Part shown: positions 11,191 through 56,123 of the stretch, one piece after another | Layout: each line of letters opens with the position of its first letter | Position numbering within the stretch: the first letter of the stretch is position 1 | Assembly (NCBI GenBank): GCA_938034975.1 | Contig: CALHNI010000007.1 | Location: 5,036 to 69,035, forward strand | Direction of reading: 5' to 3' | Length of the DNA stretch: 64,000 bases | Source of the DNA: Candidatus Goldiibacteriota bacterium | GTDB taxonomy: Bacteria; Oederibacteriota; PGYV01; DYJU01 | The notes under the pieces: model-generated | What the model saw: the letters and a program-made list of their open reading frames with translations, nothing else | Told to the model about the DNA's origin: nothing | The model's database searches: none | Position numbers and translations under genes: made by a program

Positions 11191-13749
11191 CTATTCATTA
11201 TTCCATATTATATATTCAGGAATAAATTTGCAAGTTAAATCTTCATTTCCTGGTAAAATTCTTACTGTATAATTAATTTTTCCAGAAGAAGAAGGTTCAA
11301 TGACGCCTTCATATATAAAATTGTTATCCTTATTGCCTTTGTATTCAGCTTTTACTGTTTGTGTATCAGCAAGGGTATCACCCCTGTCATATCCATAATA
11401 TATTTCAACAAGTAAATCATTATTTGACAAACCGCCGGCATATATTTCTGCTGTAATTTTTATTTTTTCTCCGAGTTTGATGCTCTCATAATGTTCTGCG
11501 GAAATATTTATTATTTTGATATTTTTCCATTTTTCTGTTATTTTTTCTTTGTATTTTGTGATTTTTTTAGCTTTATCAGCAGAATTATTTACAAGATTAA
11601 CATAATTTTTACCGGCAGGTTTATAGAATTTTTCAGTATATTCCATAACCATTCTATTTGTATTAAAAATAGGGCATAATGTCATCATAGATGTTTTCAT
11701 TTTTTTTATCCACTCATGCGGAAGATTATCTTTGCCACGCTTATAATAAAGAGGTATTATTTCATTTTCTAAAAGTTCATAGAGAGCATTAGCTTCTACC
11801 CTGTCCTGATATTCCGGATTTTCATATTCTTCTCCTTTTCCTATATCCCAGCCACAGTCATTGTTTGGTTTTTCAGCCCACCAGCCGTCTACTGTGGATA
11901 GATTAAGTCCACCATTAAATGTTACTTTCATCCCTGAAGTTCCACTGGCTTCCAAAGGTCTTCTGGGAGTGTTTAGCCAGACATCAACTCCCTGAACAAG
12001 GTAATGAGTTGTGTTTAAATTATAATTTTCTATAAACACGATATGATTTTTTAATACTTCATCTTCTGCATAATGATACAATGTTTTAATAAATTGTTTG
12101 CCTTCTTCATCTTTTGGATGTGCTTTGCCTGCAAAAATAATCTGGACAGGCATTTCTTTATTGGTAAGTATTTTTTTCAAACGTTCAATATCTTTAAATA
12201 AAAGTAAAGCACGTTTATAGGTTGCAAACCTTCTTGCAAAACCTATTGTTAAAACTTCTGGAGATAAAACTTCGTTTGCCGAATCTATTTTTTCCTTAGA
12301 TGCACCTTTTTCTTTTAATTGTTGTTTTAATTTTCTTCGAATAAAAGCAACCAAACGCTCTTTCCTTCTTTCGTGTGTTCGCCATAGTTCAGTATCGGGT
12401 ATTTCTTCTATTTTTTTCCAGACCTCGTTATCTTCCGGACAATCAACCCAGCGTGTTCCTAAATATCTGAAAAATAATTCAGCCATTTCCCTTGAAATCC
12501 AGGAATTGGCATGAATACCGTTTGTTATATGAGTGATTGGAATCTCATCAAGTAGTATATTGGGCCAAATGCCCTGCCACATTTTCCTGCTGACAAAACC
12601 ATGCAGTTTACTTACACCATTGCAAAAATTAGTCAACTTTAAAGCAAGAACAGTCATACAAAACCATTCATTATTATCATCGGGATTTATTTTCCCTAAT
12701 TTGATAAATTCGTTGAAGGGTATTTTTAAATTTGATTCAACGTATTCTTTTAAATACTTTTCTATAAGTTCTTGCGGGAATCTGTCATTTCCAGCAGGGA
12801 CAGGAGTATGAGTTGTAAAAACTGATGTGGCAAAAACTATTTCTCTGGCTTCTTTAAATGAAATATTATATTTTTTCATAAGTAACCTTACTCTTTCCAG
12901 AATCAGGAAAGCAGAATGACCTTCATTCATATGTGTAACAGTAGGATTTAATCCAAGAGCATCTAATGCCATCATTCCGCCTATACCAAGTAAAATTTCC
13001 TGTTTGATACGCATTTCCAGATCTCCACCATAAAGTTTATAAGTGATTTCTCTATCAGCAGGAGAATTTTCCGGGATGTTGGTATCAAGAAGAAAGAGAT
13101 TAATTCTTCCTACTAAAAGTTTCCAGATTTGAAATTTTACATTTGAATGAGGATATTTAATTTCAAGGATAAGTGGTTGATTATTTTTTGTTTTTACCAA
13201 ACTGGCAGGTGATATGTGGTAATTGTAGGTTATATATTTTTCCTGTTGCCAGCCGTCATTTGTAAGATATTGCTGAAAATATCCCTGTGCATATAAAAGA
13301 CCGATAGCAACAAAAGGTATGCCTAGGTCAGATGCAGATTTTAAATGATCACCTGCTAATACTCCCAAGCCGCCAGAATATATAGGAAGACATTCGGCAA
13401 TACCATACTCTGCACTAAAATATGCAACTAAAAAATTATCAGGTAAATTATTTTTGACTTTTTCATACCACGTTGGTCTTGTAAGATACTGATTAAGTTT
13501 TTTTAATATTCCATCTACTCTGAACAAAAAACCTTCATCATTTGCAAGGGTATTTAACCTTTCTTGAGGAACTTCGTATAATAGTTTAATAGGGTTATGT
13601 GAAGTTGCTGACCATATATCCGGGTCTATATCTCTGAAAAGTGCAAATGCTTCAGAATCCCAGACAAGCCATAAATTATGTGCTATATCAAGTAATGGTT
13701 TTAATTTTTCCGGCAAATTTGGTATAACAGTTAATTCGCGAAATTTCAT
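11191..13749 (-). CDS. glgP: Alpha-glucan (glycogen/maltodextrin) phosphorylase, GT35, DUF3417-type
   Basis: 852 aa. SAEYGI...LPIYSGGLGVLAGDHLKSASDLG N-terminal region and EASGTSGMK pyridoxal-phosphate lysine motif. AGGAGG RBS. Confidence 0.9.
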   Translation of the reverse strand: MKFRELTVIPNLPEKLKPLLDIAHNLWLVWDSEAFALFRDIDPDIWSATSHNPIKLLYEVPQERLNTLANDEGFLFRVDGILKKLNQYLTRPTWYEKVKNNLPDNFLVAYFSAEYGIAECLPIYSGGLGVLAGDHLKSASDLGIPFVAIGLLYAQGYFQQYLTNDGWQQEKYITYNYHISPASLVKTKNNQPLILEIKYPHSNVKFQIWKLLVGRINLFLLDTNIPENSPADREITYKLYGGDLEMRIKQEILLGIGGMMALDALGLNPTVTHMNEGHSAFLILERVRLLMKKYNISFKEAREIVFATSVFTTHTPVPAGNDRFPQELIEKYLKEYVESNLKIPFNEFIKLGKINPDDNNEWFCMTVLALKLTNFCNGVSKLHGFVSRKMWQGIWPNILLDEIPITHITNGIHANSWISREMAELFFRYLGTRWVDCPEDNEVWKKIEEIPDTELWRTHERRKERLVAFIRRKLKQQLKEKGASKEKIDSANEVLSPEVLTIGFARRFATYKRALLLFKDIERLKKILTNKEMPVQIIFAGKAHPKDEEGKQFIKTLYHYAEDEVLKNHIVFIENYNLNTTHYLVQGVDVWLNTPRRPLEASGTSGMKVTFNGGLNLSTVDGWWAEKPNNDCGWDIGKGEEYENPEYQDRVEANALYELLENEIIPLYYKRGKDNLPHEWIKKMKTSMMTLCPIFNTNRMVMEYTEKFYKPAGKNYVNLVNNSADKAKKITKYKEKITEKWKNIKIINISAEHYESIKLGEKIKITAEIYAGGLSNNDLLVEIYYGYDRGDTLADTQTVKAEYKGNKDNNFIYEGVIEPSSSGKINYTVRILPGNEDLTCKFIPEYIIWNNE

Positions 13750-13778
13750 AAAGTCCTCCTGTAAATTTTATAGGTAGT

Positions 13779-14137
13779 GTGAAAAGTTTTAACGCTTTTT
13801 ACTTAAAAATCCTTTTATTCGTATACTTTGGTTGCCTTTGTTCTCCCTTTATCAAAGGGAGATTTAGGGGGATTTATATACATCCATTCTCTTTTTCTAG
13901 CTCTCTTTTAATTTAAAATCTCCCCTAACCCCTCTTTATTAAAGAGGGGAATTTTTTATTCTTATTCTTATTTTTTTTCTCCCCCTTTGCAAAGGGGGAC
14001 TAAGTGGGATTTGTTTCATTATTTTTAAATCTCCCCTACCTCCTCTTTTTAAAAGAGGAAAAATGTATATTATTTTCAATATTTTAGTATATATTTTAAT
14101 CTCTGCCTTCTTTCTTTTTCATAGAACTTTTCACATT
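13779..14137. repeat. Left arm of a roughly 360-bp inverted repeat pair
   Basis: Reverse complement of 15116-15480. The core 13809-14137 matches with only about a dozen by-eye differences. Contains four hairpin/G-C-box units at about 13843-13875, 13916-13949, 13979-14012 and 14027-14059. Confidence 0.9.
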
Positions 14138-14239
14138 ATCATTTTGTAAATTATTTTAGCATATATTAAAGACAAAATAAAATAAAAAATTTTAAAAATT
14201 GATATAATGTTATATTTTTAGGATAAAAAATAAAATGGT

Positions 14240-14521
14240 TTATTTTATGAATATTTTTTGTATCCAACCACGTTCGCCATCAGGCAGTTCAATAAGAGCC
14301 ATTGGACCTTTAATTTCTATAATTTTTACTTTGGTGCCAGGTTTAATTTTTGTAAATGGTTTTTCACCTTTTTCAAATGGCTTTTTCCATACCTTAATAC
14401 TTTCTACATTTTTTATACCATCAAACCCAGTTGTGAAAATTTCTGTTCCTGTTTGCGGGTCAGTTTTTAAACCTGCACAGGATAATAAAACTATAAATAC
14501 AAAAAAAATTAATTTATTCAT
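14240..14521 (-). CDS. Small lipoprotein with SH3-like C-terminal region
   Basis: Signal peptide with lipobox LLSC. The KPGTKVKIIEIKGPMALIELPDGERGWI segment resembles bacterial SH3 domains. No SD; a -10-like hexamer lies close to the ATG. Confidence 0.65.
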   Translation of the reverse strand: MNKLIFFVFIVLLSCAGLKTDPQTGTEIFTTGFDGIKNVESIKVWKKPFEKGEKPFTKIKPGTKVKIIEIKGPMALIELPDGERGWIQKIFIK

Positions 14522-14574
14522 AGTTATATTTTATTTAGAACACGATAAAAGTCAAATAAATAATTAATTATCAC

Positions 14575-14630
14575 TAAAAAAGCGTTAGAAAATGCGTTTT
14601 TACTGAAAACAAAATTTTTTTATTATTTTT
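14575..14630 (-). repeat. Truncated copy of the two-hairpin intergenic repeat (hairpin-2 end only)
   Basis: TAAAAAAGCGTTAGAAAATGCGTTTTTA palindrome followed by GAAAACAAAATTTTTTTATTATT, as in the copies at 36638 and 24862 (reverse complement). Confidence 0.75.
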
Positions 14631-14634
14631 ATAG

Positions 14635-14663
14635 TTGACATAAAATTATATTTAATATATAAT
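14635..14663 (+). promoter_or_regulatory. Consensus sigma70-like promoter of the Rrf2 regulator gene
   Basis: Perfect TTGACA - 17 nt - TATAAT. Confidence 0.7.
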
Positions 14664-14680
14664 ATCACTTAAAAAGTGAT
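14664..14680 (+). promoter_or_regulatory. Perfect 7-3-7 palindrome ATCACTT-AAA-AAGTGAT, candidate operator
   Basis: Directly abuts the -10 box, at about the expected transcription start. Rrf2 regulators are commonly autoregulated through palindromic sites. Confidence 0.4.
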
Positions 14681-14705
14681 AAATTTAAAATAAAAAGGAG
14701 GGAAT

Positions 14706-15122
14706 ATGAAAATATCAACAAAAGGCAGATACGCGATAAGGGCATTAACCCATCTTGCAAAAGCATATAATAAAAAAGAACCGCTAACCATAAAAGAATT
14801 ATCAAAACTTGAAAATATTTCAAACAGATACCTTGAAAATATATTTGTTAAATTAAGAAAAGCAAGAATTGTTAACAGTTATAAAGGCGAAAAAGGAGGT
14901 TTTTTTCTGGTAAAAGAACCTGAAAAAATAACCATGTATGAAATATTAAAAGCAGTAGAAAATTTAATGGAACCAGCTGAGTGTGTGATGGACAAAAATT
15001 TTTGTTATAGATTTAAAAACTGTGGTATGCGGACAATATGGATAAAATTTAATGAGCATATAAATAAATTTTTGAAAAATGTTAATTTAAAACAAATAGC
15101 AAAAGATTACCTGAGAATGTGA
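14706..15122 (+). CDS. iscR: Rrf2-family transcriptional regulator (IscR-like, three-Cys cluster ligands)
   Basis: MKISTKGRYAIRALTHLA winged-helix N-terminus. The C-x6-C-x5-C set (CVMDKNFCYRFKNC) is a candidate Fe-S ligand set. Lies upstream of nifS-iscU. GGAGGG RBS. Confidence 0.85.
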   Translation: MKISTKGRYAIRALTHLAKAYNKKEPLTIKELSKLENISNRYLENIFVKLRKARIVNSYKGEKGGFFLVKEPEKITMYEILKAVENLMEPAECVMDKNFCYRFKNCGMRTIWIKFNEHINKFLKNVNLKQIAKDYLRM

Positions 15123-15480
15123 AAAGTTCTATGAAAAGAAAGAAGGCAGAGTTTAAAATATATACTAAAAGTATTGAAAATAATATACATTTCCCCTCTT
15201 TTAAAAAGAGGAGGTAGGAGAGATTTAAAAATAATGAAACAAATCCCCCTTAGTCCCCCTTTTGCAAAGGGGGAGAAAAAAAATAAGAATAAGAATAAAA
15301 AATTCCCCTCTTTAATAAAGAGGGGTTAGGGGAGATTTTAAATTAAAAGAGAGCTAGAAAAAGAGAATGGATGTATGTAAATCCATTAAATCTCCCTTTG
15401 CTAAAGGGAGAACAAAGGCAACCAAAGTATACGAATAAAAGGATTATTAAATTAAATAGATGGCGTTAAAACTTTTTACA
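15116..15480. repeat. Right arm of the roughly 360-bp inverted repeat pair
   Basis: Reverse complement of 13779-14137. Starts inside the last two codons and stop of the Rrf2 gene and ends about 30 nt before nifS. Confidence 0.9.
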
Positions 15481-15508
15481 ATACTGATTACCTTGAAAGG
15501 AGATAAAA

Positions 15509-16687
15509 ATGATTGAAGATGTAATTTATCTTGATAATAATGCTACGACAAAAATTGCCCCGGAAGTTGTTGAAGAGATGCTTTTGTTTTTAAAAGAAAA
15601 TTATGCAAATCCTTCAAGTATTTATTATTTGGCCCAGAACATAAAAAAGCATATAGAGACAGCCAGAGAAAAAGCAGCAAGATTATTAAATGCCGAACCA
15701 TCAGAAATTATTTTTACATCTGGCGGCACAGAGGCAGATAACATGGCAATTAAAGGAATTGCTTTTGCAAATGAAAAAAAAGGCAAACATATAATCACTT
15801 CATCAATTGAACATCATGCAGTAATAAATACCTGTAAATACCTTGAAAAACATGGATTTGAAATTACCTATATACCTGTTGATAAATATGGTATAGTTGA
15901 TGTAGATTTAATAAAAAAATCAATAAAAAATGATACAATTTTAATTTCAATAATGTATGTAAATAATGAAATTGGAACTATAGAACCAGTTGCTGAAATA
16001 GGAAAAATTGCAAGGGAAAAAGGTGTGTATTTCCATACTGATGCTGTTCAGGCAGCAGGGAAAATCAAAATTGATGTGAAAGAGCAGAACATTGATTTAC
16101 TTTCAATTTCAGGGCATAAATTCCACGGTCCAAAAGGAGCAGGTGCATTATATATAAGAAAAGGAATAAAAATTGATGCTTTATTACATGGTGGTCATCA
16201 GGAAAATAATTTAAGAGCAGGCACAGAAAATGTAGCTGGTATAATTGGATTGGGTAAAGCATGCGAGATAGCAGATGAAGATTTAAAAAATATAAAAATG
16301 AAAAGCGAGATAAAAAGGTTGAGAGATAAACTTGAAAAAGGAATTTTAGAAAAAATACCTAAAATTATTGTAAATGGTCATCCTGAAAAAAGAATAGACA
16401 ATACACTTAATATTTGTATAAAATATATAGAAGGAGAAAGTATTTTAATTAATCTGGATTTGGAAGGAATTTGTGCATCGTCCGGATCTGCATGCACGTC
16501 AGGTTCATTGGAACCATCACATGTCTTGTTAGCGCTTGGATTGCCACATGAAATAGCGCATGGTAGTTTAAGATTTAGTCTGAGTAAATATACTAAAGAA
16601 AAAGAAATAGATAAAGTTTTAGAAATATTACCAGTTATAGTTCAGAAATTAAGAAATTTATCTCCGTTTTGGAAGAAAGGAAAGTAA
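15509..16687 (+). CDS. nifS: Cysteine desulfurase (NifS/IscS class I)
   Basis: PLP lysine motif SISGHKFHGPKG and active-site loop SSGSACTSG. GGAG RBS. Confidence 0.9.
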   Translation: MIEDVIYLDNNATTKIAPEVVEEMLLFLKENYANPSSIYYLAQNIKKHIETAREKAARLLNAEPSEIIFTSGGTEADNMAIKGIAFANEKKGKHIITSSIEHHAVINTCKYLEKHGFEITYIPVDKYGIVDVDLIKKSIKNDTILISIMYVNNEIGTIEPVAEIGKIAREKGVYFHTDAVQAAGKIKIDVKEQNIDLLSISGHKFHGPKGAGALYIRKGIKIDALLHGGHQENNLRAGTENVAGIIGLGKACEIADEDLKNIKMKSEIKRLRDKLEKGILEKIPKIIVNGHPEKRIDNTLNICIKYIEGESILINLDLEGICASSGSACTSGSLEPSHVLLALGLPHEIAHGSLRFSLSKYTKEKEIDKVLEILPVIVQKLRNLSPFWKKGK

Positions 16688-17601
16688 AAGTGGCAAATAA
16701 AAACTTAATAGAAGAAATTAACGAATTAAAAAAGAAAAAAAATGCAGTAATAGTTGCTCATAATTATCAGATACCAGAAGTTCAGGATATTGCTGATTTT
16801 ACAGGAGATTCCCTGGAACTTTCAAAAAAATGCAAAGGAGTTAAAGAAAAAATAATTGTATTTTGTGGTGTGAAATTTATGGCAGAAACTGCTAAAATTT
16901 TATCTCCTGAAAAAAAAGTTTTAATACCAAAAGAAAATGCAGGATGTCAGCTTGCAGATTCTATAAAACCAGAAGAAGTTGATGAATATAGAGAAAAATA
17001 TCCAAATGCCGCTGTTGTTGGTTATGTAAATACTTCGGCGGCAACCAAGGCAAAACTTGATTATTGTGTAACTTCGGCAAATGCAGTTAATATTGTAAAA
17101 AAAATACCCAACAAGGAAATAATTTTCTTACCTGATAAAAATCTCGGGTTATGGGTTCAAAAAAATGTAAAAGATAAAGAAATTATAATTCATAATGGCA
17201 GATGTTATGTTCATCATAAATTTACAAAGGAAGATGTAATTAATGCGAGAGTTGCCCATCCGGATGCTAAAATTGTAGTTCATCCTGAATGCTTATCTGA
17301 AGTAACGGAATTAGCAGATGAAGTTGCTTCAACTTCTGGAATGATAAAATATGTCAAAGAAAGTTCAGCAAAAAAATTTATTATAGGAACAGAAGAAGGA
17401 CACATACATCGTTTAAAAAAGGAAAGACCAGATGCTGAATTTTATTCACTTGGAAATGCCCAGATATGTTTTAATATGAAATTGATAAAATTAAAAGATG
17501 TATATGATTCGCTTTTGAATGAAAAATATGAGATAATTTTGCCGGATGATATCATAACAAAAGCAATTTTACCTATAGAAAGAATGCTGAATTTATCTTA
17601 A
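16669..17601 (+). CDS. nadA: Quinolinate synthase A
   Basis: AHNYQIPEVQDIADFTGDSLELS, VFCGVKFMAETAKIL and VHPEC motifs of NadA. TTG start at 16669 overlaps nifS; an alternative GTG is at 16690. Confidence 0.9.
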   Translation: MEERKVKVANKNLIEEINELKKKKNAVIVAHNYQIPEVQDIADFTGDSLELSKKCKGVKEKIIVFCGVKFMAETAKILSPEKKVLIPKENAGCQLADSIKPEEVDEYREKYPNAAVVGYVNTSAATKAKLDYCVTSANAVNIVKKIPNKEIIFLPDKNLGLWVQKNVKDKEIIIHNGRCYVHHKFTKEDVINARVAHPDAKIVVHPECLSEVTELADEVASTSGMIKYVKESSAKKFIIGTEEGHIHRLKKERPDAEFYSLGNAQICFNMKLIKLKDVYDSLLNEKYEIILPDDIITKAILPIERMLNLS

Positions 17602-17611
17602 AGGAGGAAAA

Positions 17612-17995
17612 ATGTTACAGTATTCTGATAAAGTAATGGAACAGTTTAAAAGTATGAAAAATGCAGGCAGGATAGAAAATGCCGATGGTATTGGAAAAGT
17701 TGGCAACCCTGTTTGTGGAGATGTTATGTGGATATATATAAAAGTAGATGAAAATGAAGTTATAACTGACTGTAAATTTGAAACCTTCGGATGTGTTGCT
17801 GCAATTGCAACTTCATCGCTTGCTACTGAACTTGTAAAAGGTAAAAAAATAGATGAAGCAAAAGATATCACAAATAAAAGAATTGTTGAATTGTTAGGTG
17901 GTTTACCTAAGGAAAAATTTCATTGTTCAGTTTTAGCAGAAGAAGGAATAAAAAAGGCAATAGAAGATTATAAAAATAAAAAAGCCGGCAAATGA
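17612..17995 (+). CDS. iscU: Fe-S cluster scaffold IscU/NifU N-terminal type
   Basis: GNPVCGD, FETFGCVAAIATSS and FHCSVLAEE motifs carry the three conserved Cys. GGAGG RBS. Confidence 0.9.
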   Translation: MLQYSDKVMEQFKSMKNAGRIENADGIGKVGNPVCGDVMWIYIKVDENEVITDCKFETFGCVAAIATSSLATELVKGKKIDEAKDITNKRIVELLGGLPKEKFHCSVLAEEGIKKAIEDYKNKKAGK

Positions 17996-19038
17996 AAAAA
18001 GTTTTAGTTGGTTTAAGCGGGGGGGTTGATTCTTCGGTTGCTGCTTTTTTATTAAAAAAATCAGGATATGAAGTTATAGGAATAACACTCAAATTATGGA
18101 ATGATGCATCCCGTTGTTGTAATTATGAAGATATACAGCGGGCAAAAAATTTATGTTTTAAAATAGGAATAAAGCATTATGTCTTAAATTTAAAAAATTA
18201 TTTTAAAAAAGAAGTAATAAACTATTTTATTCAAGATTATATTAATGGTCTAACACCAAACCCGTGTGTTATTTGCAACGAAAAGATAAAATTTTTTGCA
18301 TTATTTAAAAAAATGAAGGAAATAAATTTTGATTTTATAGCAACAGGTCATTATGCAAAAATAAAAAAGGTTAAAACCAATTATTTTTTATGCAGTGCTA
18401 AAGATAAAAATAAAACCCAGGAATATTTTCTTGCCCGGCTTGACAAAGATATATTAAAATATATAATATTTCCATTATCTGATTTTACCAAAGATGAAGT
18501 AAAAAAAATAGCATATGACCAGAAATTTTTTATACCAGAAAAAGAAAGTCAGGAAATTTGCTTTTTAAAAGATAAAGAGCCACCATATAAATTCATTGAG
18601 AAATTTGTTAATTTAAAAGAATACGCAAATTGTTCTATATATAATTTGCAGGGTGTAAAATTAAAAGAAATTACACAGCCCTATTTTAAATTTACAATTG
18701 GGCAGAGAAAAGGATTAGGTATTGGTGGTGGAACACCATTTTATGTTTATAAAATAGACGCAAAAGAAAAAAAAGTTGTTGTAAGTGAAGAAAAAATGTT
18801 GTATAATAATTATTGTAAAATTGATAATACAAAATTTTTTATAAATATTCCCCAAAAATTATTCAGGGCAAAAGTAAAGATTAGATATTTACATAAAAAA
18901 GCAAGCGCTTTAATAAAGAAAATAGATAAAGATAAAATGGAAATTGTGTTTGATAAACCGCAATTTGCAATAACGCCAGGACAACTGGCAGTAATTTATA
19001 AAAATGATTATATAATTGGAAGTGGATTTATTATATAA
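17992..19038 (+). CDS. mnmA: tRNA-specific 2-thiouridylase
   Basis: PP-loop GLSGGVDSSVAA, NPCVICN motif and ATGHYA. Overlaps the iscU stop by 4 nt. Confidence 0.9.
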   Translation: MKKVLVGLSGGVDSSVAAFLLKKSGYEVIGITLKLWNDASRCCNYEDIQRAKNLCFKIGIKHYVLNLKNYFKKEVINYFIQDYINGLTPNPCVICNEKIKFFALFKKMKEINFDFIATGHYAKIKKVKTNYFLCSAKDKNKTQEYFLARLDKDILKYIIFPLSDFTKDEVKKIAYDQKFFIPEKESQEICFLKDKEPPYKFIEKFVNLKEYANCSIYNLQGVKLKEITQPYFKFTIGQRKGLGIGGGTPFYVYKIDAKEKKVVVSEEKMLYNNYCKIDNTKFFINIPQKLFRAKVKIRYLHKKASALIKKIDKDKMEIVFDKPQFAITPGQLAVIYKNDYIIGSGFII

Positions 19039-19092: not shown

Positions 19093-19121
19093 TTGACAAA
19101 GAAAAGGTTATATTATATATA
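19093..19121 (+). promoter_or_regulatory. Consensus-like sigma70 promoter upstream of the GC-rich hairpin
   Basis: TTGACA - 17 nt - TATATA. The predicted start near 19128 lies about 20 nt before the hairpin. Confidence 0.55.
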
Positions 19122-19149
19122 TGTAGCAAAATTTAAACAAAAAAAAAGT

Positions 19150-19207
19150 CCGGGGGCGGGCATCCCTAACTTAACCCTCCCCAATACCCCCTTACGTCCG
19201 CCCCCGG
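19150..19207 (+). ncRNA. Isolated GC-rich hairpin, candidate small RNA (strand uncertain)
   Basis: A 10-bp all-G/C stem (CCGGGGGCGG / CCGCCCCCGG) encloses a 38-nt loop with three C-rich boxes (CCCUAAC, CCCUCCCC, CCCCC). Flanked by an A9 run on + (a T9 run on -). It stands out against the AT-rich background. Confidence 0.45.
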
Positions 19208-19230
19208 TTAAAATAAAAACAAAATCACTT

Positions 19231-19427
19231 CATGGAAATTGCATTATTAGTGCGATTTTCACAGGAGAAAAAATACAAAATAATATATTAGTTAAAAAAA
19301 GTAAAAAATTTATAACAACAATTGAGTTTTATTTTAAAAAAACGGCTAAATAAAAATAATGCAATATAAGAATAATAAAAAAATTTTGTTTTTCCATAAA
19401 AACGCGTGTTCTAACTAGTTTTTACCG
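19231..19427 (+). repeat. Two-hairpin intergenic repeat, near-full copy (G)
   Basis: Hairpin-1 is GGAAATTGCA..TGCGATTTTC followed by AGGAGAAAAAA. Hairpin-2 is CCATAAAAACGCGTGTTCTAACTAGTTTTTACCG at 19394-19427. Confidence 0.8.
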
Positions 19428-19441
19428 TCACTTTAAAAAAT

Positions 19442-19470
19442 TTGACAAATAAAAAATTAAGTGATAAGAT
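19442..19470 (+). promoter_or_regulatory. Sigma70-like promoter of the 19507-23703 operon
   Basis: TTGACA - 17 nt - TAAGAT with an extended -10 TG, 14 nt downstream of hairpin-2. Confidence 0.55.
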
Positions 19471-19506
19471 TTTTATAATAATAAATATATTTTCAAAGGA
19501 GGAAAT

Positions 19507-24582: not shown

Positions 24583-24664
24583 AAACTATATCCCATATTG
24601 ATTTTTTTATTTTATTATATTGTATTATAAAAAGTAAATCAATTGAAAAATGAAAAATTTTGAT

Positions 24665-24862
24665 CTGAAAATTGTATTATTAGAAGATTACGATATTCAG
24701 GAGAAAAAAAATAAAATATTTAAAACAACGCTTGTTTTTTATTTTAAATAAAAAAACGGGTGAATAAAAGAAATGCATTATAAAAATAAAAATTTATTAA
24801 ATAAAAATGATAAAAAAATTTTGTTTTTCCGTAAAAACGCGTTTTCTAACGCATTTTTACGG
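24665..24862 (+). repeat. Two-hairpin intergenic repeat, full copy (A)
   Basis: Hairpin-1 is CTGAAAATTGTA..TACGATATTCAG followed by GAGAAAAAAAA. Hairpin-2 is CCGTAAAAACGCGTTTTCTAACGCATTTTTACGG at 24829-24862. The reverse complement aligns almost base-for-base with 36638-36845. Confidence 0.9.
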
Positions 24863-24875
24863 AATATATTTAATA

Positions 24876-24903
24876 TTGACAATTAATGGTTTAATTTTAA
24901 AAT
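24876..24903 (+). promoter_or_regulatory. Sigma70-like promoter of sufC
   Basis: TTGACA - 16 nt - TAAAAT, 13 nt downstream of hairpin-2. Confidence 0.55.
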
Positions 24904-24935: not shown

Positions 24936-25676
24936 ATGAGTATACTTGAATTAAAAAATTTAACACTTGTAAAAGATGGAAAGATATTGCTTTCAAACAT
25001 AAATATAGAAATTTGGGCAGGATATGTTCATGCTATAGTCGGACCAAATGGTGCAGGAAAATCAACTCTTGCAAATACAATAATGGGACTTCATGGTTAC
25101 AGAAATTTTGTCGGAGATATTTTATTTGAAGGTAAATCAATAAAAAACTTATCAATTGATGAAAGAGCACGGCTTGGTATTACCATGGTTTTTCAGGAAC
25201 CAGCCAGGTTTGAAGGTTTAGCAGTTGACGATTTTATACTGGCTGGTGTAAAAGAAAAAAAAGAAAATTTAATTGATGAGGCGCTTTTAAAGGTTGGTCT
25301 TGACCCTTTAAAATATCGGAAAAGGGCTGTTGACAAAACATTGTCTGGTGGTGAAAGAAAACGAATTGAGATTGCTTCAATTTATGCGATGAAACCAAAA
25401 CTTGTTTTTTTAGATGAACCGGATAGTGGGGTTGATATTGATTCTGTAAAATTCATTTTTGAGATAATAAAAGATTTTAAAAAACAGGGAACAACTGTTA
25501 TTTTAGTAACACATAGCCCTGAAGTTTTAAAACAGAGCGATCATGCTTTTTTAATATGTGCCGGGAAACTTATCTGTAAAGGAGAAGTAGACAAAATGTT
25601 TGATTATTTTACAGGGAAATGTGCTCCGTGTAATCATGTGGGCAATCCGGAAATAGAAGACGGAAAAACAATATGA
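24936..25676 (+). CDS. sufC: Fe-S cluster assembly ATPase SufC
   Basis: Walker A GPNGAGKSTL, signature LSGGERKR and Walker B FLDEPDSG. Confidence 0.9.
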   Translation: MSILELKNLTLVKDGKILLSNINIEIWAGYVHAIVGPNGAGKSTLANTIMGLHGYRNFVGDILFEGKSIKNLSIDERARLGITMVFQEPARFEGLAVDDFILAGVKEKKENLIDEALLKVGLDPLKYRKRAVDKTLSGGERKRIEIASIYAMKPKLVFLDEPDSGVDIDSVKFIFEIIKDFKKQGTTVILVTHSPEVLKQSDHAFLICAGKLICKGEVDKMFDYFTGKCAPCNHVGNPEIEDGKTI

Positions 25677-26593
25677 GCGAAAACAAAATTTTACAGGAAC
25701 TCCTTTTTTATTCAGGATTACATAAAACTTCACCTGATATTGCTCATGTAGAAATACATGGAAATAAAGTTTTAGGTGCAAATTTAGTTGAAGGTTTGAT
25801 AGTTAAATCAGAAAGTTTTTCTGAGGGAGTAAATATAAAAATAGAAGTTGTAAAAGAAATTAAAAATCCGGTAAGGTTTTGTTTCGGGTTGATACCTGAA
25901 AATGGCATACAAAAAATAAACATAGATACAGTTATAAAAGAAAACGCATCTGCTGAATTTTTTGCAACATGCACTTTCCCGAATGCAAAAAATATTCAGC
26001 ATATTATGAACGCAAATATAATAATTGAAAAAAACGCTTCTCTCAAATATTTTGAACGCCATATTCACGGTCCGGAAGGTGGAGTGCTTATTGTTCCGGT
26101 AACAGAAGTTTTTGTAAAGGAAAATGCAAGGTATTCAACTGAATTTGAATTAATAAAGGGTGCCGCGGGTGTTATAAAACTTGATTATAAAGCCAAAGTT
26201 GAAAGGCATGGGATTGTTGATATGAAAGCAAGAATTTTTGGAAGATTAAAAGATAAAATATATATAAAAGAATCAGCACACTTAAAAGGAGAAAATTCTG
26301 TTGGTGTTTTAACAAGTCACATAGCATTAAAAGATGAAGCCAACGCTATAGTTGAAAATGAAATAATAGCAGATGCTGCTTTTGCGAGGGGGCATGTTGA
26401 TTGCAAAGAAATTGTTCAGGGAAAAGCTGTTGCAAGAGCAGTGCCGATTGTGCAGGTAAATAACCCCAAAGCACATGTGACACATGAGGCTGCAATCGGT
26501 TCTGTTGATTCAAAACAACTGGAAACATTGCTTTCGCGTGGTCTTTCAGAAGATGAAGCAGTTGATTTGATAATAAATGGTCTTTTAAAATAA
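25673..26593 (+). CDS. sufB: SufB/SufD-family Fe-S assembly protein (short form)
   Basis: C-terminal HVTHEAAIGSVDSKQLETLLSRGLSEDEAVDLIINGLL is typical of UPF0051 SufBD. 4-nt overlap with sufC. Confidence 0.8.
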   Translation: MSENKILQELLFYSGLHKTSPDIAHVEIHGNKVLGANLVEGLIVKSESFSEGVNIKIEVVKEIKNPVRFCFGLIPENGIQKINIDTVIKENASAEFFATCTFPNAKNIQHIMNANIIIEKNASLKYFERHIHGPEGGVLIVPVTEVFVKENARYSTEFELIKGAAGVIKLDYKAKVERHGIVDMKARIFGRLKDKIYIKESAHLKGENSVGVLTSHIALKDEANAIVENEIIADAAFARGHVDCKEIVQGKAVARAVPIVQVNNPKAHVTHEAAIGSVDSKQLETLLSRGLSEDEAVDLIINGLLK

Positions 26594-32165: not shown

Positions 32166-32258
32166 TTTAACCAACCTCCTTTCATTTGATTTTTTTATTA
32201 AAATACAAAAGCATAAATTATGCCAGAAATTTTTTTATAAAAAAATATGGAAATTATA

Positions 32259-32464
32259 CCGTAAAAAGCATTGGAAAATGCGTTTTTATAAAAAGATAAA
32301 TATTTTTATCATTTTTATTTAATAAATTTTTGTTTTACTTTGATTAGCATGTTTTTTAATTAAAAAATAAAATATACATGTAGTTTTAAATTTTTGTTAT
32401 TTAATAACATTTTTATTGTATATTTTTCTCAATAAAATCACAATTTTCTATTGCTATTTGCAGG
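32259..32464 (-). repeat. Two-hairpin intergenic repeat, diverged full copy (E)
   Basis: Hairpin-2 is CCGTAAAAAGCATTGGAAAATGCGTTTTTATA at 32259-32290. The shared internal block is ATCATTTTTATTTAATAAATTTTTG. A hairpin-1-like end lies at 32428-32464. Confidence 0.7.
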
Positions 32465-36520: not shown

Positions 36521-36637
36521 TTTTTGAAATAAGCGTAGTTTTATTATATATTAACCCGCAACAAATTACTGCATTTGTAAAAAAATTCATTGATTTTATA
36601 TGTTTTTTAACTTTTCGTATATTACTTATATATTTTA

Positions 36638-36845
36638 CAGTAAAAATGCATTAGAAAACGCGTTTTTACGAAAAAACAAAATTTTTTTATTATTCTTATT
36701 TAATAAATTTTTATTTTTATAATGCATTACTTTTATTCACCTGCTTTTTTATTTAAAATAAAGATAAATATTTTATTTTTTAAAATAATATATTATTTTG
36801 TGTTTTTTCTTATGAAAATTGCAATCTTTTATTACGATTTCCAAG
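36638..36845 (-). repeat. Two-hairpin intergenic repeat, full copy (B)
   Basis: Hairpin-2 is CAGTAAAAATGCATTAGAAAACGCGTTTTTACG at 36638-36670. Hairpin-1 is GAAAATTGCAAT..ATTACGATTTCC at 36809-36845. Near-identical to the reverse complement of copy A. Confidence 0.9.
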
Positions 36846-37075
36846 TATTAATTTTAAATTCCTTTAATAATGCTCATTGCTATAGTCATTATTGGCGAGA
36901 ATAAGTTTTGTGATGAATAATAAATAATGCTTTAAAACGAAAAATCTATTTATTGTTTTAAATCTTTCAGGTATATACCTTATGTTTTCTTATTAACATA
37001 CGGTTTAAAATTTATTCTTGACTTTTTAAAAAAATAAATATATCAATATTAAAATTAAAAAAAGGAAAATATTAA

Positions 37076-38312: not shown

Positions 38313-38500
38313 CCTGAAAATTGTAAATTGTAATAGGAAATTGCGATTTTCAGGAGAAAAAATAAAAAATATTATTAAAGAGATAAAATATTTAAAAGAA
38401 CATTTGAGTTTTATTTAAAAAAATGTAAATAAAATAAAAGCAATGAATTATAAATATTTCATTTTTCTGTAAAAAATGCGTTTTCTAACGCTTTTTACGG
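38313..38500 (+). repeat. Two-hairpin intergenic repeat, full copy (C)
   Basis: Hairpin-1 is CCTGAAAATTGTAA..ATTGCGATTTTCAGG followed by AGAAAAAATAAAA. Hairpin-2 is CTGTAAAAAATGCGTTTTCTAACGCTTTTTACGG at 38467-38500, 24 nt before the ftsK ATG. Confidence 0.85.
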
Positions 38501-38524
38501 AAATATTTAAGGTATATAAATAAA

Positions 38525-55958: not shown

Positions 55959-56123
55959 CCGTAAAAATGCGTTTTCTAACGCGTTTTTACTTAAAAACTA
56001 TAATACATTGCTTTTAATTGCCTATCTTTAAATTTAAAATAAAAAAAGTTTTGTCTTAAAAATTTTATTTGTTTAACAATATTTTTTCTGAAAATTGCAA
56101 TTTCCTATTGGTAATTTCATTGG
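55959..56123 (-). repeat. Two-hairpin intergenic repeat, shorter copy (D)
   Basis: Hairpin-2 is CCGTAAAAATGCGTTTTCTAACGCGTTTTTAC at 55959-55990. Hairpin-1 is CTGAAAATTGCAAT..GGTAATTTCATTGG at 56088-56123. Confidence 0.8.

What the first reader, a model, noticed from the sequence alone, without database searches (positions are those of the whole stretch)
13779..15480. Pair of roughly 360-bp near-identical inverted repeats bracketing a 1-kb Rrf2-regulator/lipoprotein cassette
13779-14137 is the reverse complement of 15116-15480. Over the core (13809-14137 vs 15116-15443) I count only about a dozen substitutions or 1-nt indels by eye. The roughly 980-bp loop holds exactly two divergent genes (SH3-like lipoprotein on -, IscR-like Rrf2 regulator on +) and their shared promoter region. 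The inner end of the right arm includes the last codons and stop of the Rrf2 gene (AATGTGA), and the same bases occur at the inner end of the left arm. One arm therefore looks like an inverted copy of the regulator's 3' flank.

Two consequences follow:
1. glgP (- strand) and nifS (+ strand) each see the same roughly 360-bp sequence upstream in the same relative orientation, so it is a shared leader or regulatory module.
2. Recombination between the arms would flip the cassette. That would redirect the perfect-consensus Rrf2 promoter (TTGACA-17-TATAAT) from nifS-nadA-iscU-mnmA toward glgP.

No site-specific recombinase is present in the window, so any inversion would have to be RecA-type or mediated in trans. 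Both outer ends carry a degenerate half of the hairpin-2 palindrome of the dispersed repeat family.
Basis: partly seen in the sequence, partly recalled or inferred. Interest (0 to 1): 0.75.

Follow-up and report, generated by a model that had tools for sequence, protein, structure and literature searches.

The report
Two small transposon copies flanking regulator
The two ~370-bp inverted repeats are real, but they are two separate insertions of one small non-coding mobile element (MITE-like), one in front of glgP and one in front of the nifS operon, so this is ordinary mobile-DNA litter and there is no evidence of a genetic flip switch.

Summary
13773-14140 and 15113-15485 are inverted copies, 368 and 373 bp, 93.6% identical. 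They bracket the lipoprotein and Rrf2 genes.

- Each arm has 14-bp inverted repeats near its ends (TGTGAAAAGTTYTA).
- Each arm has its own 8-bp target-site duplication: ATTTTATA/ATTTTGTA on the left, GATTACCT/GATTACCT on the right.
- Five orthologous loci from related Goldbacteria-like genomes have the same gene order and orientation but lack both arms.
- Deleting each arm plus one duplication copy restores their "empty" sites exactly. That includes the old Rrf2 C-terminus (…YLERR*) and its stop codon 4 nt before nifS.

So these are two independent insertions of a non-autonomous, MITE-like element. One lies between the conserved glgP -10 box and its ribosome-binding site. The other lies in the last codons of Rrf2.

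Both sit in the orientation that keeps the element's terminator-like hairpin off the transcribed strand. This plausibly explains why they are inverted relative to each other.

The intact duplication pairs show that the assembled orientation is the ancestral one. No recombinase or transposase gene is in the window, and nothing indicates inversion. This is a new member of a known kind, of low to moderate interest.

The parts
11191..13749 (-). glgP (alpha-glucan phosphorylase, 852 aa), the gene downstream of the left element
   Evidence: Pfam Phosphorylase and DUF3417. Same position and strand in relatives L002, L003 and L005.
13765..13772 (.). Left target-site duplication, outer copy (ATTTTATA)
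   Evidence: Matches 14141-14148 at 7/8. It lies directly outside the point where similarity between the two arms ends.
13773..14140 (-). Left copy of the MITE-like element (368 bp), inserted between the glgP -10 box and its ribosome-binding site
   Evidence: 93.6% identical to the right copy. It appears as one clean insertion against L001, L003 and L005. Its outer junction is independently present in contigs L006 and L012.
13778..13791 (+). Inverted repeat near the element end (TGTGAAAAGTTTTA), left copy, outer end
   Evidence: Exact match to TGTGAAAAGTTYTA. The only matches with 0-1 mismatch in the window are the four arm ends.
13929..13949 (+). Terminator-like hairpin plus T-run (CCCCTCTTTATTAAAGAGGGG AATTTTTTAT), on the strand antisense to glgP transcription
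   Evidence: scan_promoters_terminators.
14122..14135 (-). Inverted repeat near the element end (TGTGAAAAGTTCTA), left copy, inner end
   Evidence: Exact match.
14141..14148 (.). Left target-site duplication, inner copy (ATTTTGTA)
14153..14161 (-). Conserved extended -10 box of glgP (TGCTAAAAT on the - strand), now separated from the glgP ribosome-binding site by the element
   Evidence: TATG-TAAAAT is invariant in the alignment of the window with L001, L003 and L005. That it is the promoter is inferred.
14240..14521 (-). Conserved 93-aa lipoprotein gene (lipobox LLSC; weak SH3_3 similarity)
   Evidence: 60-73% identity to orthologues at the same position. SH3_3 E=0.02, below the Pfam cutoff.
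14566..14632 (.). About 67-bp fragment of a second dispersed repeat family (contains a palindrome 27/30 identical to the family consensus), inserted between the divergent lipoprotein and Rrf2 promoters
   Evidence: Family D4. Palindrome match. Absent from the shorter intergenic regions of the relatives.
14635..14681 (+). Rrf2 promoter (TTGACA-17-TATAAT) followed by the operator-like palindrome TATCACTTAAAAAGTGATA
   Evidence: 12/12 promoter match. The exact palindrome occurs only here in the window. Both are conserved in L001-L005.
14706..15122 (+). Rrf2-family regulator (138 aa). Its last two codons and stop come from the right element.
   Evidence: PF02082, E=1e-34. C-terminus is …KDYLRM*, against …YLERR* in the reconstructed empty site.
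15105..15112 (.). Right target-site duplication, inner copy (GATTACCT), inside the Rrf2 ORF
   Evidence: 8/8 match with 15486-15493.
15113..15485 (+). Right copy of the MITE-like element (373 bp), inserted in the last codons of Rrf2 just upstream of the nifS ribosome-binding site
   Evidence: One clean insertion against L001 and L003-L005. Outer junction independently present in contig L011.
15118..15131 (+). Inverted repeat near the element end, right copy, inner end (TGTGAAAAGTTCTA)
15305..15325 (-). Terminator-like hairpin plus T-run, on the strand antisense to nifS transcription
15467..15480 (-). Inverted repeat near the element end, right copy, outer end (TGTAAAAAGTTTTA, 1 mismatch)
15486..15506 (+). 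Right target-site duplication, outer copy (GATTACCT), followed by the stranded ancestral end of Rrf2 (…D Y L E R R stop) that still carries the nifS ribosome-binding site GGAG
   Evidence: Joining 14706-15112 to 15494 onward translates to …KDYLERR*. It aligns with the Rrf2/nifS junctions of the relatives.
15509..16687 (+). nifS-type cysteine desulfurase, first gene of nifS-nadA-iscU-mnmA downstream of the right element
   Evidence: Pfam Aminotran_5, NadA, NifU_N and tRNA_Me_trans.

Best explanation
The two arms are two independent transposition insertions of one small non-autonomous mobile element. It is MITE-like: about 370 bp, no gene, 14-bp inverted repeats near its ends, an 8-bp target-site duplication, and four to five internal G+C-rich hairpins. 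A transposase encoded elsewhere must have moved it.

One copy landed about 12 nt downstream of the conserved -10 box of glgP, ahead of its ribosome-binding site. The other landed 9 nt before the original stop codon of the Rrf2 gene, which was originally followed 4 nt later by the nifS start codon.

The cassette between them is native and has not moved or flipped. Both copies are now most probably transcribed passively, as a structured 5' leader of glgP and as a 386-nt spacer inside the rrf2-nifS-nadA-iscU-mnmA operon.

They are inverted relative to each other because the two target transcription units are divergent. Only one orientation of the element keeps its terminator-like hairpin off the mRNA, so only that orientation is tolerated upstream of needed genes.

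Shown: the insertions, their boundaries, the duplications, the empty sites and the ancestral orientation. Inferred: co-transcription, selection on orientation, and mobilisation in trans.
For: Element signature
- Inverted repeat TGTGAAAAGTTYTA at all four arm ends, with 0-1 mismatch; no other such match in the window.
- Direct 8-bp repeats lie exactly where similarity between the arms stops: GATTACCT/GATTACCT and ATTTTATA/ATTTTGTA.
- At fixed positions in this window an 8/8 match has frequency 3.3e-4, and 7/8 or better has 3.4e-3.

Empty sites in relatives
- Five orthologous loci (Rrf2 67-79% identical) have the same gene order and strands.
- Their glgP-lipoprotein gap is about 76-115 bp, and Rrf2 and nifS overlap or lie 1-4 nt apart.
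- Alignments show one clean gap of about 375 nt at each site.
- Removing each element plus one duplication copy restores an Rrf2 ending …YLERR*, with TAA 4 nt before the nifS ATG. It also restores a 17-nt spacer between -10 and the ribosome-binding site, as against 16-18 nt in relatives.

Non-coding, structured
- No conserved ORF: the longest are 46 and 51 aa, with no homologue.
- No Rfam family.
- The RNA folds with the terminal repeats closing a multi-hairpin structure, z = -4.

Orientation
- Terminator-like hairpins are found only on the strand antisense to glgP and nifS transcription.

Independent assemblies
- L006, L011 and L012 reproduce both outer junctions at 99.9-100% identity and break inside the arms.
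- The Logan k=31 contigs stop 31 and 35 nt earlier than a two-copy graph predicts (k from PMC12424806). This points to a further sequence sharing the element termini in that sample.
Against: - Only two copies were seen directly.
- Exact-word scans of 185,579 species genomes and of JGI metagenomes found only the same locus again, plus chance hits.
- No match in IMG/VR viral contigs or plasmids; the phage search returned only a 38-nt hairpin match judged chance.
- No parent insertion sequence or transposase was found.
- The terminal 5 nt outside the 14-bp repeats do not match each other, which is atypical for a MITE.
- The left duplication has one mismatch.
- Selection on orientation rests on n=2 and cannot be tested statistically.
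- No transcript data exist.
Confidence: 0.85

Rival explanations
1. Invertible cassette. Recombination between the two arms flips the 972-bp segment. This swaps promoters, so that the Rrf2 promoter drives glgP and the glgP and lipoprotein promoters drive the nifS operon. The result would be a phase-variation-like switch.
For: - The arms are long and similar enough for RecA-type recombination: 93.6% overall with a 116-nt identical run.
- The loop contains promoters facing both ways.
- MITE-type repeats have been linked to inversions in Neisseria (PMC3454330).
- Short-read assemblies break in the arms, so a minority orientation cannot be excluded.
Against: - No recombinase gene in the window.
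- The arms are accidental transposon insertions, absent from relatives.
- The duplication pairs are unswapped, and the orientation equals that of all relatives. The consensus is therefore the never-flipped, or evenly flipped, state.
- Flipping would uncouple the Fe-S assembly operon from its regulator, which is probably harmful.
- No read-level data show a second orientation.
Confidence: 0.05
2. One arm is an inverted duplicate of the native 3' flank of the Rrf2 gene, produced for example by template switching or inverted duplication.
For: The inner end of the right arm overlaps the Rrf2 stop codon, and the same bases end the left arm.
Against: - Relatives have no 3' flank. Rrf2 overlaps nifS or lies 1-4 nt from it.
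- The right arm is itself bounded by a perfect 8-bp duplication.
- The ancestral Rrf2 end (…YLERR*) survives on the far side of the right arm.
- The left arm has its own, different duplication.
Confidence: 0.03
3. A single 1.7-kb composite or foldback transposon with 370-bp terminal repeats, carrying the Rrf2 and lipoprotein genes as cargo, inserted between glgP and nifS.
For: Two inverted copies flank a two-gene cargo. MITE-like pairs are known to mobilise integrons (Delihas 2011, PMC3184786).
Against: - The outer flanks do not share a duplication (ATTTTATA versus GATTACCT), whereas each arm has its own.
- The same two genes sit at the same place and orientation in five relatives without arms.
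Confidence: 0.02
4. Assembly artefact. One arm, or the orientation of the loop, was created by the assembler.
For: Independent short-read assemblies break inside the arms. The inner junctions are seen only in the window's own contig.
Against: - The two copies differ at 24 alignment columns, and each has its own duplication.
- Both outer junctions are reproduced in other assemblies.
- The assembled orientation pairs each duplication correctly, keeps the Rrf2 reading frame and matches the relatives.
Confidence: 0.02
5. Co-opted shared regulatory leader. After insertion, the identical structured RNA upstream of glgP and nifS was recruited to co-regulate glycogen breakdown and Fe-S cluster assembly, for example through a common RNA-binding factor or RNase site. 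This is compatible with the MITE origin.
For: - Same orientation relative to both downstream genes, and placement inside the transcribed regions.
- Stable structure.
- Co-transcribed MITEs are known to alter mRNA stability (PMC3184786).
Against: - No Rfam match.
- The Rrf2 operator motif is absent from the arms.
- The copies have drifted 6% apart, including in hairpins, with no sign of constraint.
- Absent from all relatives.
Confidence: 0.1

Closest known systems
Bacterial MITEs that are co-transcribed with neighbouring genes (Correia/CREE elements of Neisseria, ERIC/IRU of enterobacteria, Nezha of cyanobacteria), as reviewed by Delihas 2011 (PMC3184786)
   Same: - Small and non-coding, with inverted repeats at or near the ends.
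- Flanked by target-site duplications.
- Filled and empty sites are seen in related genomes.
- Predicted long stem-loop RNA.
- Inserted in 5' and 3' gene ends and in operon spacers; can fuse to or replace the end of an ORF.
   Different: - No sequence similarity to any of them.
- 8-bp duplication, whereas Correia uses TA (from my own knowledge, not tested here).
- At about 370 bp it is at the upper end of the size range.
- The inverted repeats start 5 nt in from the tips.
- Only two copies seen, and no partner transposase identified.
- The host is an uncultured Goldbacteria-like lineage.
MITE pairs straddling a gene cassette (integron mobilization units and the Acinetobacter 439-bp MITE pair; PMC3184786)
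   Same: Two copies of a MITE-like element bracket a short gene cassette.
   Different: - There the pair and its cargo transposed as a unit with one shared duplication.
- Here each copy has its own duplication.
- Here the cargo is native at this site in relatives.
Invertible promoter switches (fim-type or 'inverton' systems) and repeat-mediated chromosomal inversions (CREE-mediated inversion in N. gonorrhoeae, PMC3454330)
   Same: Inverted repeats flank a promoter-bearing segment. Homologous recombination between inverted repeat elements can invert the DNA between them.
   Different: - No invertase gene.
- The repeats are about 370 bp of diverged transposon rather than short recombinase sites.
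- No second orientation was observed.
- The duplication pattern shows the ancestral arrangement.

Membership tests
MITE (non-autonomous element with terminal inverted repeats; definition in PMC3184786) | Small size (usually under 200 bp, up to about 400 bp) and no transposase gene | tested here: met
   368 and 373 bp. The longest internal ORFs are 46 and 51 aa, differ between the copies, and have no homologue.
MITE (non-autonomous element with terminal inverted repeats; definition in PMC3184786) | Terminal inverted repeats | tested here: met
   TGTGAAAAGTTYTA at both ends of both copies, 0-1 mismatch. Caveat: the repeats begin 5 nt inside the tips defined by the target-site duplications.
MITE (non-autonomous element with terminal inverted repeats; definition in PMC3184786) | Flanking target-site duplication | tested here: met
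   8 bp: GATTACCT (8/8) and ATTTTATA/ATTTTGTA (7/8). Chance frequencies are 3e-4 and 3e-3.
MITE (non-autonomous element with terminal inverted repeats; definition in PMC3184786) | Filled versus empty sites in homologous regions of related genomes | tested here: met
   L001-L005 lack both copies. The alignments show single clean gaps.
MITE (non-autonomous element with terminal inverted repeats; definition in PMC3184786) | Multiple dispersed copies in the genome | tested here: inconclusive
   - Two copies in 64 kb.
- Collection scans recovered only the same locus.
- The positions where the Logan k=31 contigs break imply at least one more sequence sharing the termini.
- The rest of the genome could not be searched.
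MITE (non-autonomous element with terminal inverted repeats; definition in PMC3184786) | A partner insertion sequence or transposase with matching ends | not testable with these tools
   No transposase domain in the window. No ISfinder-type library, and the full MAG is not available.
MITE (non-autonomous element with terminal inverted repeats; definition in PMC3184786) | Folds into a long stem-loop as RNA | tested here: met
   MFE -85.7 and -86.2 kcal/mol, z = -4.0 and -4.1. The terminal repeats pair with each other.
Site-specific invertible switch (inverton) | A tyrosine or serine invertase encoded nearby | tested here: not met
   No recombinase Pfam hit in any ORF of 120 aa or more in the 64-kb window.
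Site-specific invertible switch (inverton) | Short recombinase-site inverted repeats (tens of bp) bounding a promoter | tested here: not met
   The repeats are about 370-bp transposon copies with their own target-site duplications.
Site-specific invertible switch (inverton) | Both orientations present in the population | not testable with these tools
   No reads available. The available contigs stop inside the arms. The consensus orientation equals the ancestral one.
Composite transposon or MITE-flanked mobilisable unit | One target-site duplication shared by the two outer ends | tested here: not met
   The outer flanks are ATTTTATA and GATTACCT.
Composite transposon or MITE-flanked mobilisable unit | Cargo found in different genomic contexts | tested here: not met
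   Where the contigs reach far enough, the relatives show the same order: L002 and L003 carry glgP-lipoprotein-Rrf2-nifS in full, L001 and L005 carry a truncated gene at the glgP position, and L004 starts at the lipoprotein gene.

The most novel reading that the evidence does not exclude
The two inverted MITE copies have created a RecA-dependent flip-flop by accident. Inversion of the 972-bp cassette would put glgP under the Fe-S-sensing Rrf2 promoter, and would put the nifS-nadA-iscU-mnmA operon under the glgP and lipoprotein promoters. Subpopulations would then have rewired carbon-store and Fe-S-assembly regulation. A milder variant is that the shared structured leader has been recruited to co-regulate both units.
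Probability: 0.05. Interest if true: 0.6.

Novelty: new member of a known kind. Interest (0 to 1): 0.25.

Why it matters
This is a clean, fully reconstructable example of how small mobile elements remodel gene junctions in an uncultured phylum.
- One copy split a promoter from its ribosome-binding site.
- The other replaced a regulator's stop codon and broke the close abutment between the regulator gene and an Fe-S cluster assembly operon that relatives retain.
- Both apparently did so without destroying either unit.

It also gives a practical warning. Long inverted repeats around a promoter cassette can look like a switch when they are two transposon insertions whose orientation is probably set by transcriptional polarity. 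Checking target-site duplications and empty sites in relatives tells the two apart without reads.

Beyond that it is ordinary mobile-DNA biology.

Tried and rejected
- **Rfam:** searches at gathering threshold and at E up to 1 found nothing except a meaningless sub-threshold plant microRNA hit.
- **GTDB species genomes:** an exact 19-mer scan found the same locus in MAG contig CALINM010000027.1 and one chance hit in a 51% G+C gammaproteobacterial contig.
- **JGI metagenomes:** an exact 20-mer scan found three hits judged to be chance. Two are 55% G+C contigs with a 24-nt match and no partner repeat; one lies inside a coding ORF.
- **Viral contigs, plasmids and phages:** two IMG/VR scans, one of them a gapped pattern built on the inverted repeats, and BLAST against plasmids found nothing. 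BLAST against phages returned only a 38-nt hairpin match.
- **Element ORF:** I searched the 51-aa ORF translated from the element, hoping other copies had been called as genes. No candidate was found.
- **Exact-protein look-ups:** the Rrf2, lipoprotein and a window-end protein gave no other contigs, so no contig spanning an arm in either orientation was obtained.
- **Rrf2 operator motif in the arms:** absent.
- **Outward promoter inside the element:** only weak 9/12 matches.
- **Sample origin in the literature:** nothing found.
- **Rejected readings:** inverted duplication, composite transposon and mis-assembly, for the reasons given under the rival explanations.
Full report

Yes. The repeat finder reports a collinear series of inverted blocks between 13756-14141 and 15112-15502 (129 nt at 98%, 70 nt at 94%, 37 nt at 97%, 26 nt at 96%). 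MAFFT and BLAST align the two arms end to end at 92-93%.

After refining the boundaries, the copies are 13773-14140 (368 bp) and 15113-15485 (373 bp). They are identical at 351 of 375 aligned columns, with a 116-nt perfect run.

Within the 64-kb window (28.5% G+C) the sequence occurs only at these two places.

The loop contains:
- a 93-aa lipoprotein gene on the minus strand;
- an Rrf2-family regulator on the plus strand;
- a 12/12 consensus promoter at 14635-14663.

Outside the loop lie glgP (minus strand) and nifS-nadA-iscU-mnmA (plus strand). 'SH3-like' for the lipoprotein rests only on a sub-threshold SH3_3 hit (E=0.02).

**2. Anatomy of an arm**

Each arm carries the 14-mer TGTGAAAAGTTYTA in inverted orientation near both of its own ends: 13778-91 (+), 14122-35 (-), 15118-31 (+) and 15467-80 (-). 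These have 0-1 mismatch. They are the only good matches in the window.

The interior is two diverged ~111-bp half-units (76% identical). Each holds two G+C-rich hairpins of the types TCTCCCTTT…AAAGGGAGA and CCCCTCTTT…AAAGAGGGG.

As RNA, either copy folds with the terminal repeats closing a multi-hairpin structure (-86 kcal/mol, z = -4).

There is no Rfam match. The only ORFs are 46 and 51 aa, differ between the copies, and have no homologue.

**3. Related genomes show that the arms are insertions**

The Rrf2 protein's nearest relatives are 67-79% identical, and some are labelled Candidatus Goldbacteria/Goldiibacteriota.

Their contigs L001-L005 show the same layout: mfd, a 134-aa gene, glgP(-), the 94-aa lipoprotein(-), Rrf2(+), nifS, nadA, iscU, mnmA. 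The strands are the same. However, the glgP-lipoprotein gap is only about 76-115 bp, and Rrf2 overlaps nifS or lies 1-4 nt from it.

Aligning the junctions shows one clean gap of about 375 nt in every relative at each site.

**4. Target-site duplications and empty-site reconstruction**

Direct 8-bp repeats lie exactly where similarity between the arms ends:
- right copy: GATTACCT at 15105-12 and 15486-93;
- left copy: ATTTTATA at 13765-72 and ATTTTGTA at 14141-48.

At fixed positions in this window such matches have frequencies of 3.3e-4 (8/8) and 3.4e-3 (7/8 or better).

Deleting the right copy and one duplication joins Rrf2 to …GAT TAC CTT GAA AGG AGA TAA. This gives the C-terminus …KDYLERR*, a stop 4 nt before the nifS ATG, and the nifS ribosome-binding site GGAG inside the Rrf2 end. 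That is the architecture of the relatives. In the present gene the element supplies the last two codons and the stop (…YLRM*).

Deleting the left copy restores TATATGCTAAAAT, then a 17-nt spacer, then GGAGG and the ATG of glgP. TATG-TAAAAT is invariant in all relatives, and their spacers are 16-18 nt. I read this as an extended -10 promoter, which is an inference. The element entered about 12 nt downstream of it, inside the 5' untranslated region.

**5. What this excludes**

- *Inverted duplication of the Rrf2 3' flank.* There was no such flank, and both copies have their own different duplications.
- *A 1.7-kb composite or foldback transposon bringing in the cassette.* The outer flanks do not share a duplication, and the cassette is native in the relatives.
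- *Mis-assembly.* The copies differ at 24 columns. Each duplication is correctly paired in the assembled orientation. Contigs from other assemblies reproduce both outer junctions: L006 = CALINM010000027.1 at 99.94% identity, and Logan ERR9287890 contigs L011 and L012 at 100%.
- *A past inversion fixed in this assembly.* A crossover between the arms would leave each arm flanked by one left-type and one right-type duplication. That is not seen, and the orientation equals that of the relatives.

**6. Why inverted, and what the copies do now (inference)**

The scan finds terminator-like hairpins with T-runs (CCCCTCTTTATTAAAGAGGGG AATTTTTTAT) only on the plus strand of the left copy and the minus strand of the right copy. 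In both cases this is the strand antisense to the downstream gene.

In the transcribed orientation none of the hairpins is followed by a U-tract; this can be read directly from the sequence.

An insertion in the other orientation between Rrf2 and nifS, or between the glgP promoter and its ribosome-binding site, would probably be polar on needed genes. Two tolerated insertions into divergent transcription units are therefore necessarily inverted relative to each other.

With n=2 this cannot be tested statistically.

No convincing outward promoter is present in the element (only 9/12 matches). The Rrf2 operator-like palindrome TATCACTTAAAAAGTGATA occurs only at the Rrf2 promoter. Read-through from the native promoters is therefore the most likely way glgP and nifS are expressed.

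A regulatory role is unproven.

**7. Is it a dispersed family?**

Direct evidence is limited to two copies.
- Exact-word scans of the GTDB species genomes and of JGI metagenomes returned only the same locus plus chance matches.
- IMG/VR and plasmids gave nothing, and phages gave only a 38-nt hairpin match judged chance.

Indirect evidence comes from the Logan assembly, which is a k=31 graph (PMC12424806).
- With only the two copies present, the glgP-side and nifS-side contigs should reach 13837 and 15416.
- They actually stop at 13802 and 15447.
- L012 begins with exactly the terminal 30 nt of the left copy. A further branch therefore exists, either at the element-flank junction (13772/13773) or at 13803.
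- L011 stops so that the branch falls either at 15446 or at 15477. Position 15477 is the one place where the right copy's terminal repeat departs from the consensus.

The simplest reading is that at least one more sequence in that sample shares the element termini. This is suggestive, not proof.

No transposase or recombinase domain occurs in any ORF of 120 aa or more in the window.

**8. Comparison with known systems**

The element meets the working definition of a bacterial MITE given by Delihas 2011 (PMC3184786):
- small and without a transposase gene;
- inverted repeats at the ends;
- flanking direct repeats;
- filled and empty sites in related genomes;
- a stem-loop RNA;
- frequent fusion to ORF ends and co-transcription with neighbouring genes.

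Differences or open points are its length (the upper end of the range), inverted repeats that start 5 nt from the tips, an unknown copy number and an unknown partner transposase.

It does not meet the defining features of a site-specific invertible switch: there is no invertase, and the repeats are not short recombinase sites. It does not meet those of a composite transposon either: there is no shared outer duplication, and the cargo is native.

Homologous recombination between inverted repeat elements can invert DNA; a CREE-mediated inversion in N. gonorrhoeae is an example (PMC3454330). A low-frequency RecA-type flip therefore remains possible, but nothing here shows it.

**9. Verdict**

The best explanation is two independent insertions of a new MITE-like element in a Goldbacteria-like genome (confidence about 0.85). 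This is a new member of a known kind, of low to moderate interest.

Noticed in passing
window 19294-19485, 24649-24877, 32244-32448, 36626-36860, 38314-38523, 55959-56081; partial copy 14566-14632: A second, more abundant intergenic repeat family of about 200 bp. It ends in the 34-nt palindrome CCGTAAAAACGCGTTTTCTAACGCGTTTTTACGG, usually just upstream of a -35 box. The palindrome is absent from the 4-14-kb orthologous loci of relatives, so this lineage seems to have expanded intergenic repeats. The outer ends of the 370-bp arms (GTGAAAAGTTTTAACGCTTTTTAC) look like a shortened version of this palindrome, which hints at a common mobilising enzyme.
   Followed up: partly
window 14663-14681 and the equivalent sites in L001-L005: A perfect palindrome TATCACTTAAAAAGTGATA lies directly after the -10 box of the Rrf2 promoter. 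It is conserved in all five relatives and unique in the window. It is probably the autoregulatory Rrf2 operator.
   Followed up: partly
window 15509-19038; L001-L005: nadA (quinolinate synthase, an Fe-S enzyme) is embedded between nifS and iscU in a conserved rrf2-nifS-nadA-iscU-mnmA operon in the window and all relatives.
   Followed up: no
L011 start (window 15447) and L012 start (window 13802): The Logan k=31 contigs end 31 and 35 nt closer to the element tips than a two-copy de Bruijn graph predicts. This implies another sequence with the same element termini in sample ERR9287890.
   Followed up: partly
L008 1397-1420 and L009 137-160 (JGI Ga0315278 and Ga0315275): A 24-nt exact match to the inner terminus of the element (TTTTTCATAGAACTTTTCACATTA) lies in an A+T-rich patch of two 55% G+C contigs. 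No partner inverted repeat was found. I judged it chance, but it is longer than expected.
   Followed up: partly
window 19093-19353: This 86-aa ORF, also called as a gene on Logan contig L011, overlaps a copy of the second repeat family and is probably spurious.
   Followed up: no
window 13811 versus L006: One of the two differences between the window and MAG contig CALINM010000027.1 over their 3,163-bp overlap (99.94% identity) is a C/A SNP inside the left element. At least two strain variants therefore share the left insertion.
   Followed up: no
window 24936-26593: A SUF-type Fe-S assembly pair (an ABC ATPase and a SufBD-core protein) lies about 6 kb downstream of the ISC-like operon. The genome therefore carries parts of both Fe-S assembly systems close together.
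   Followed up: no
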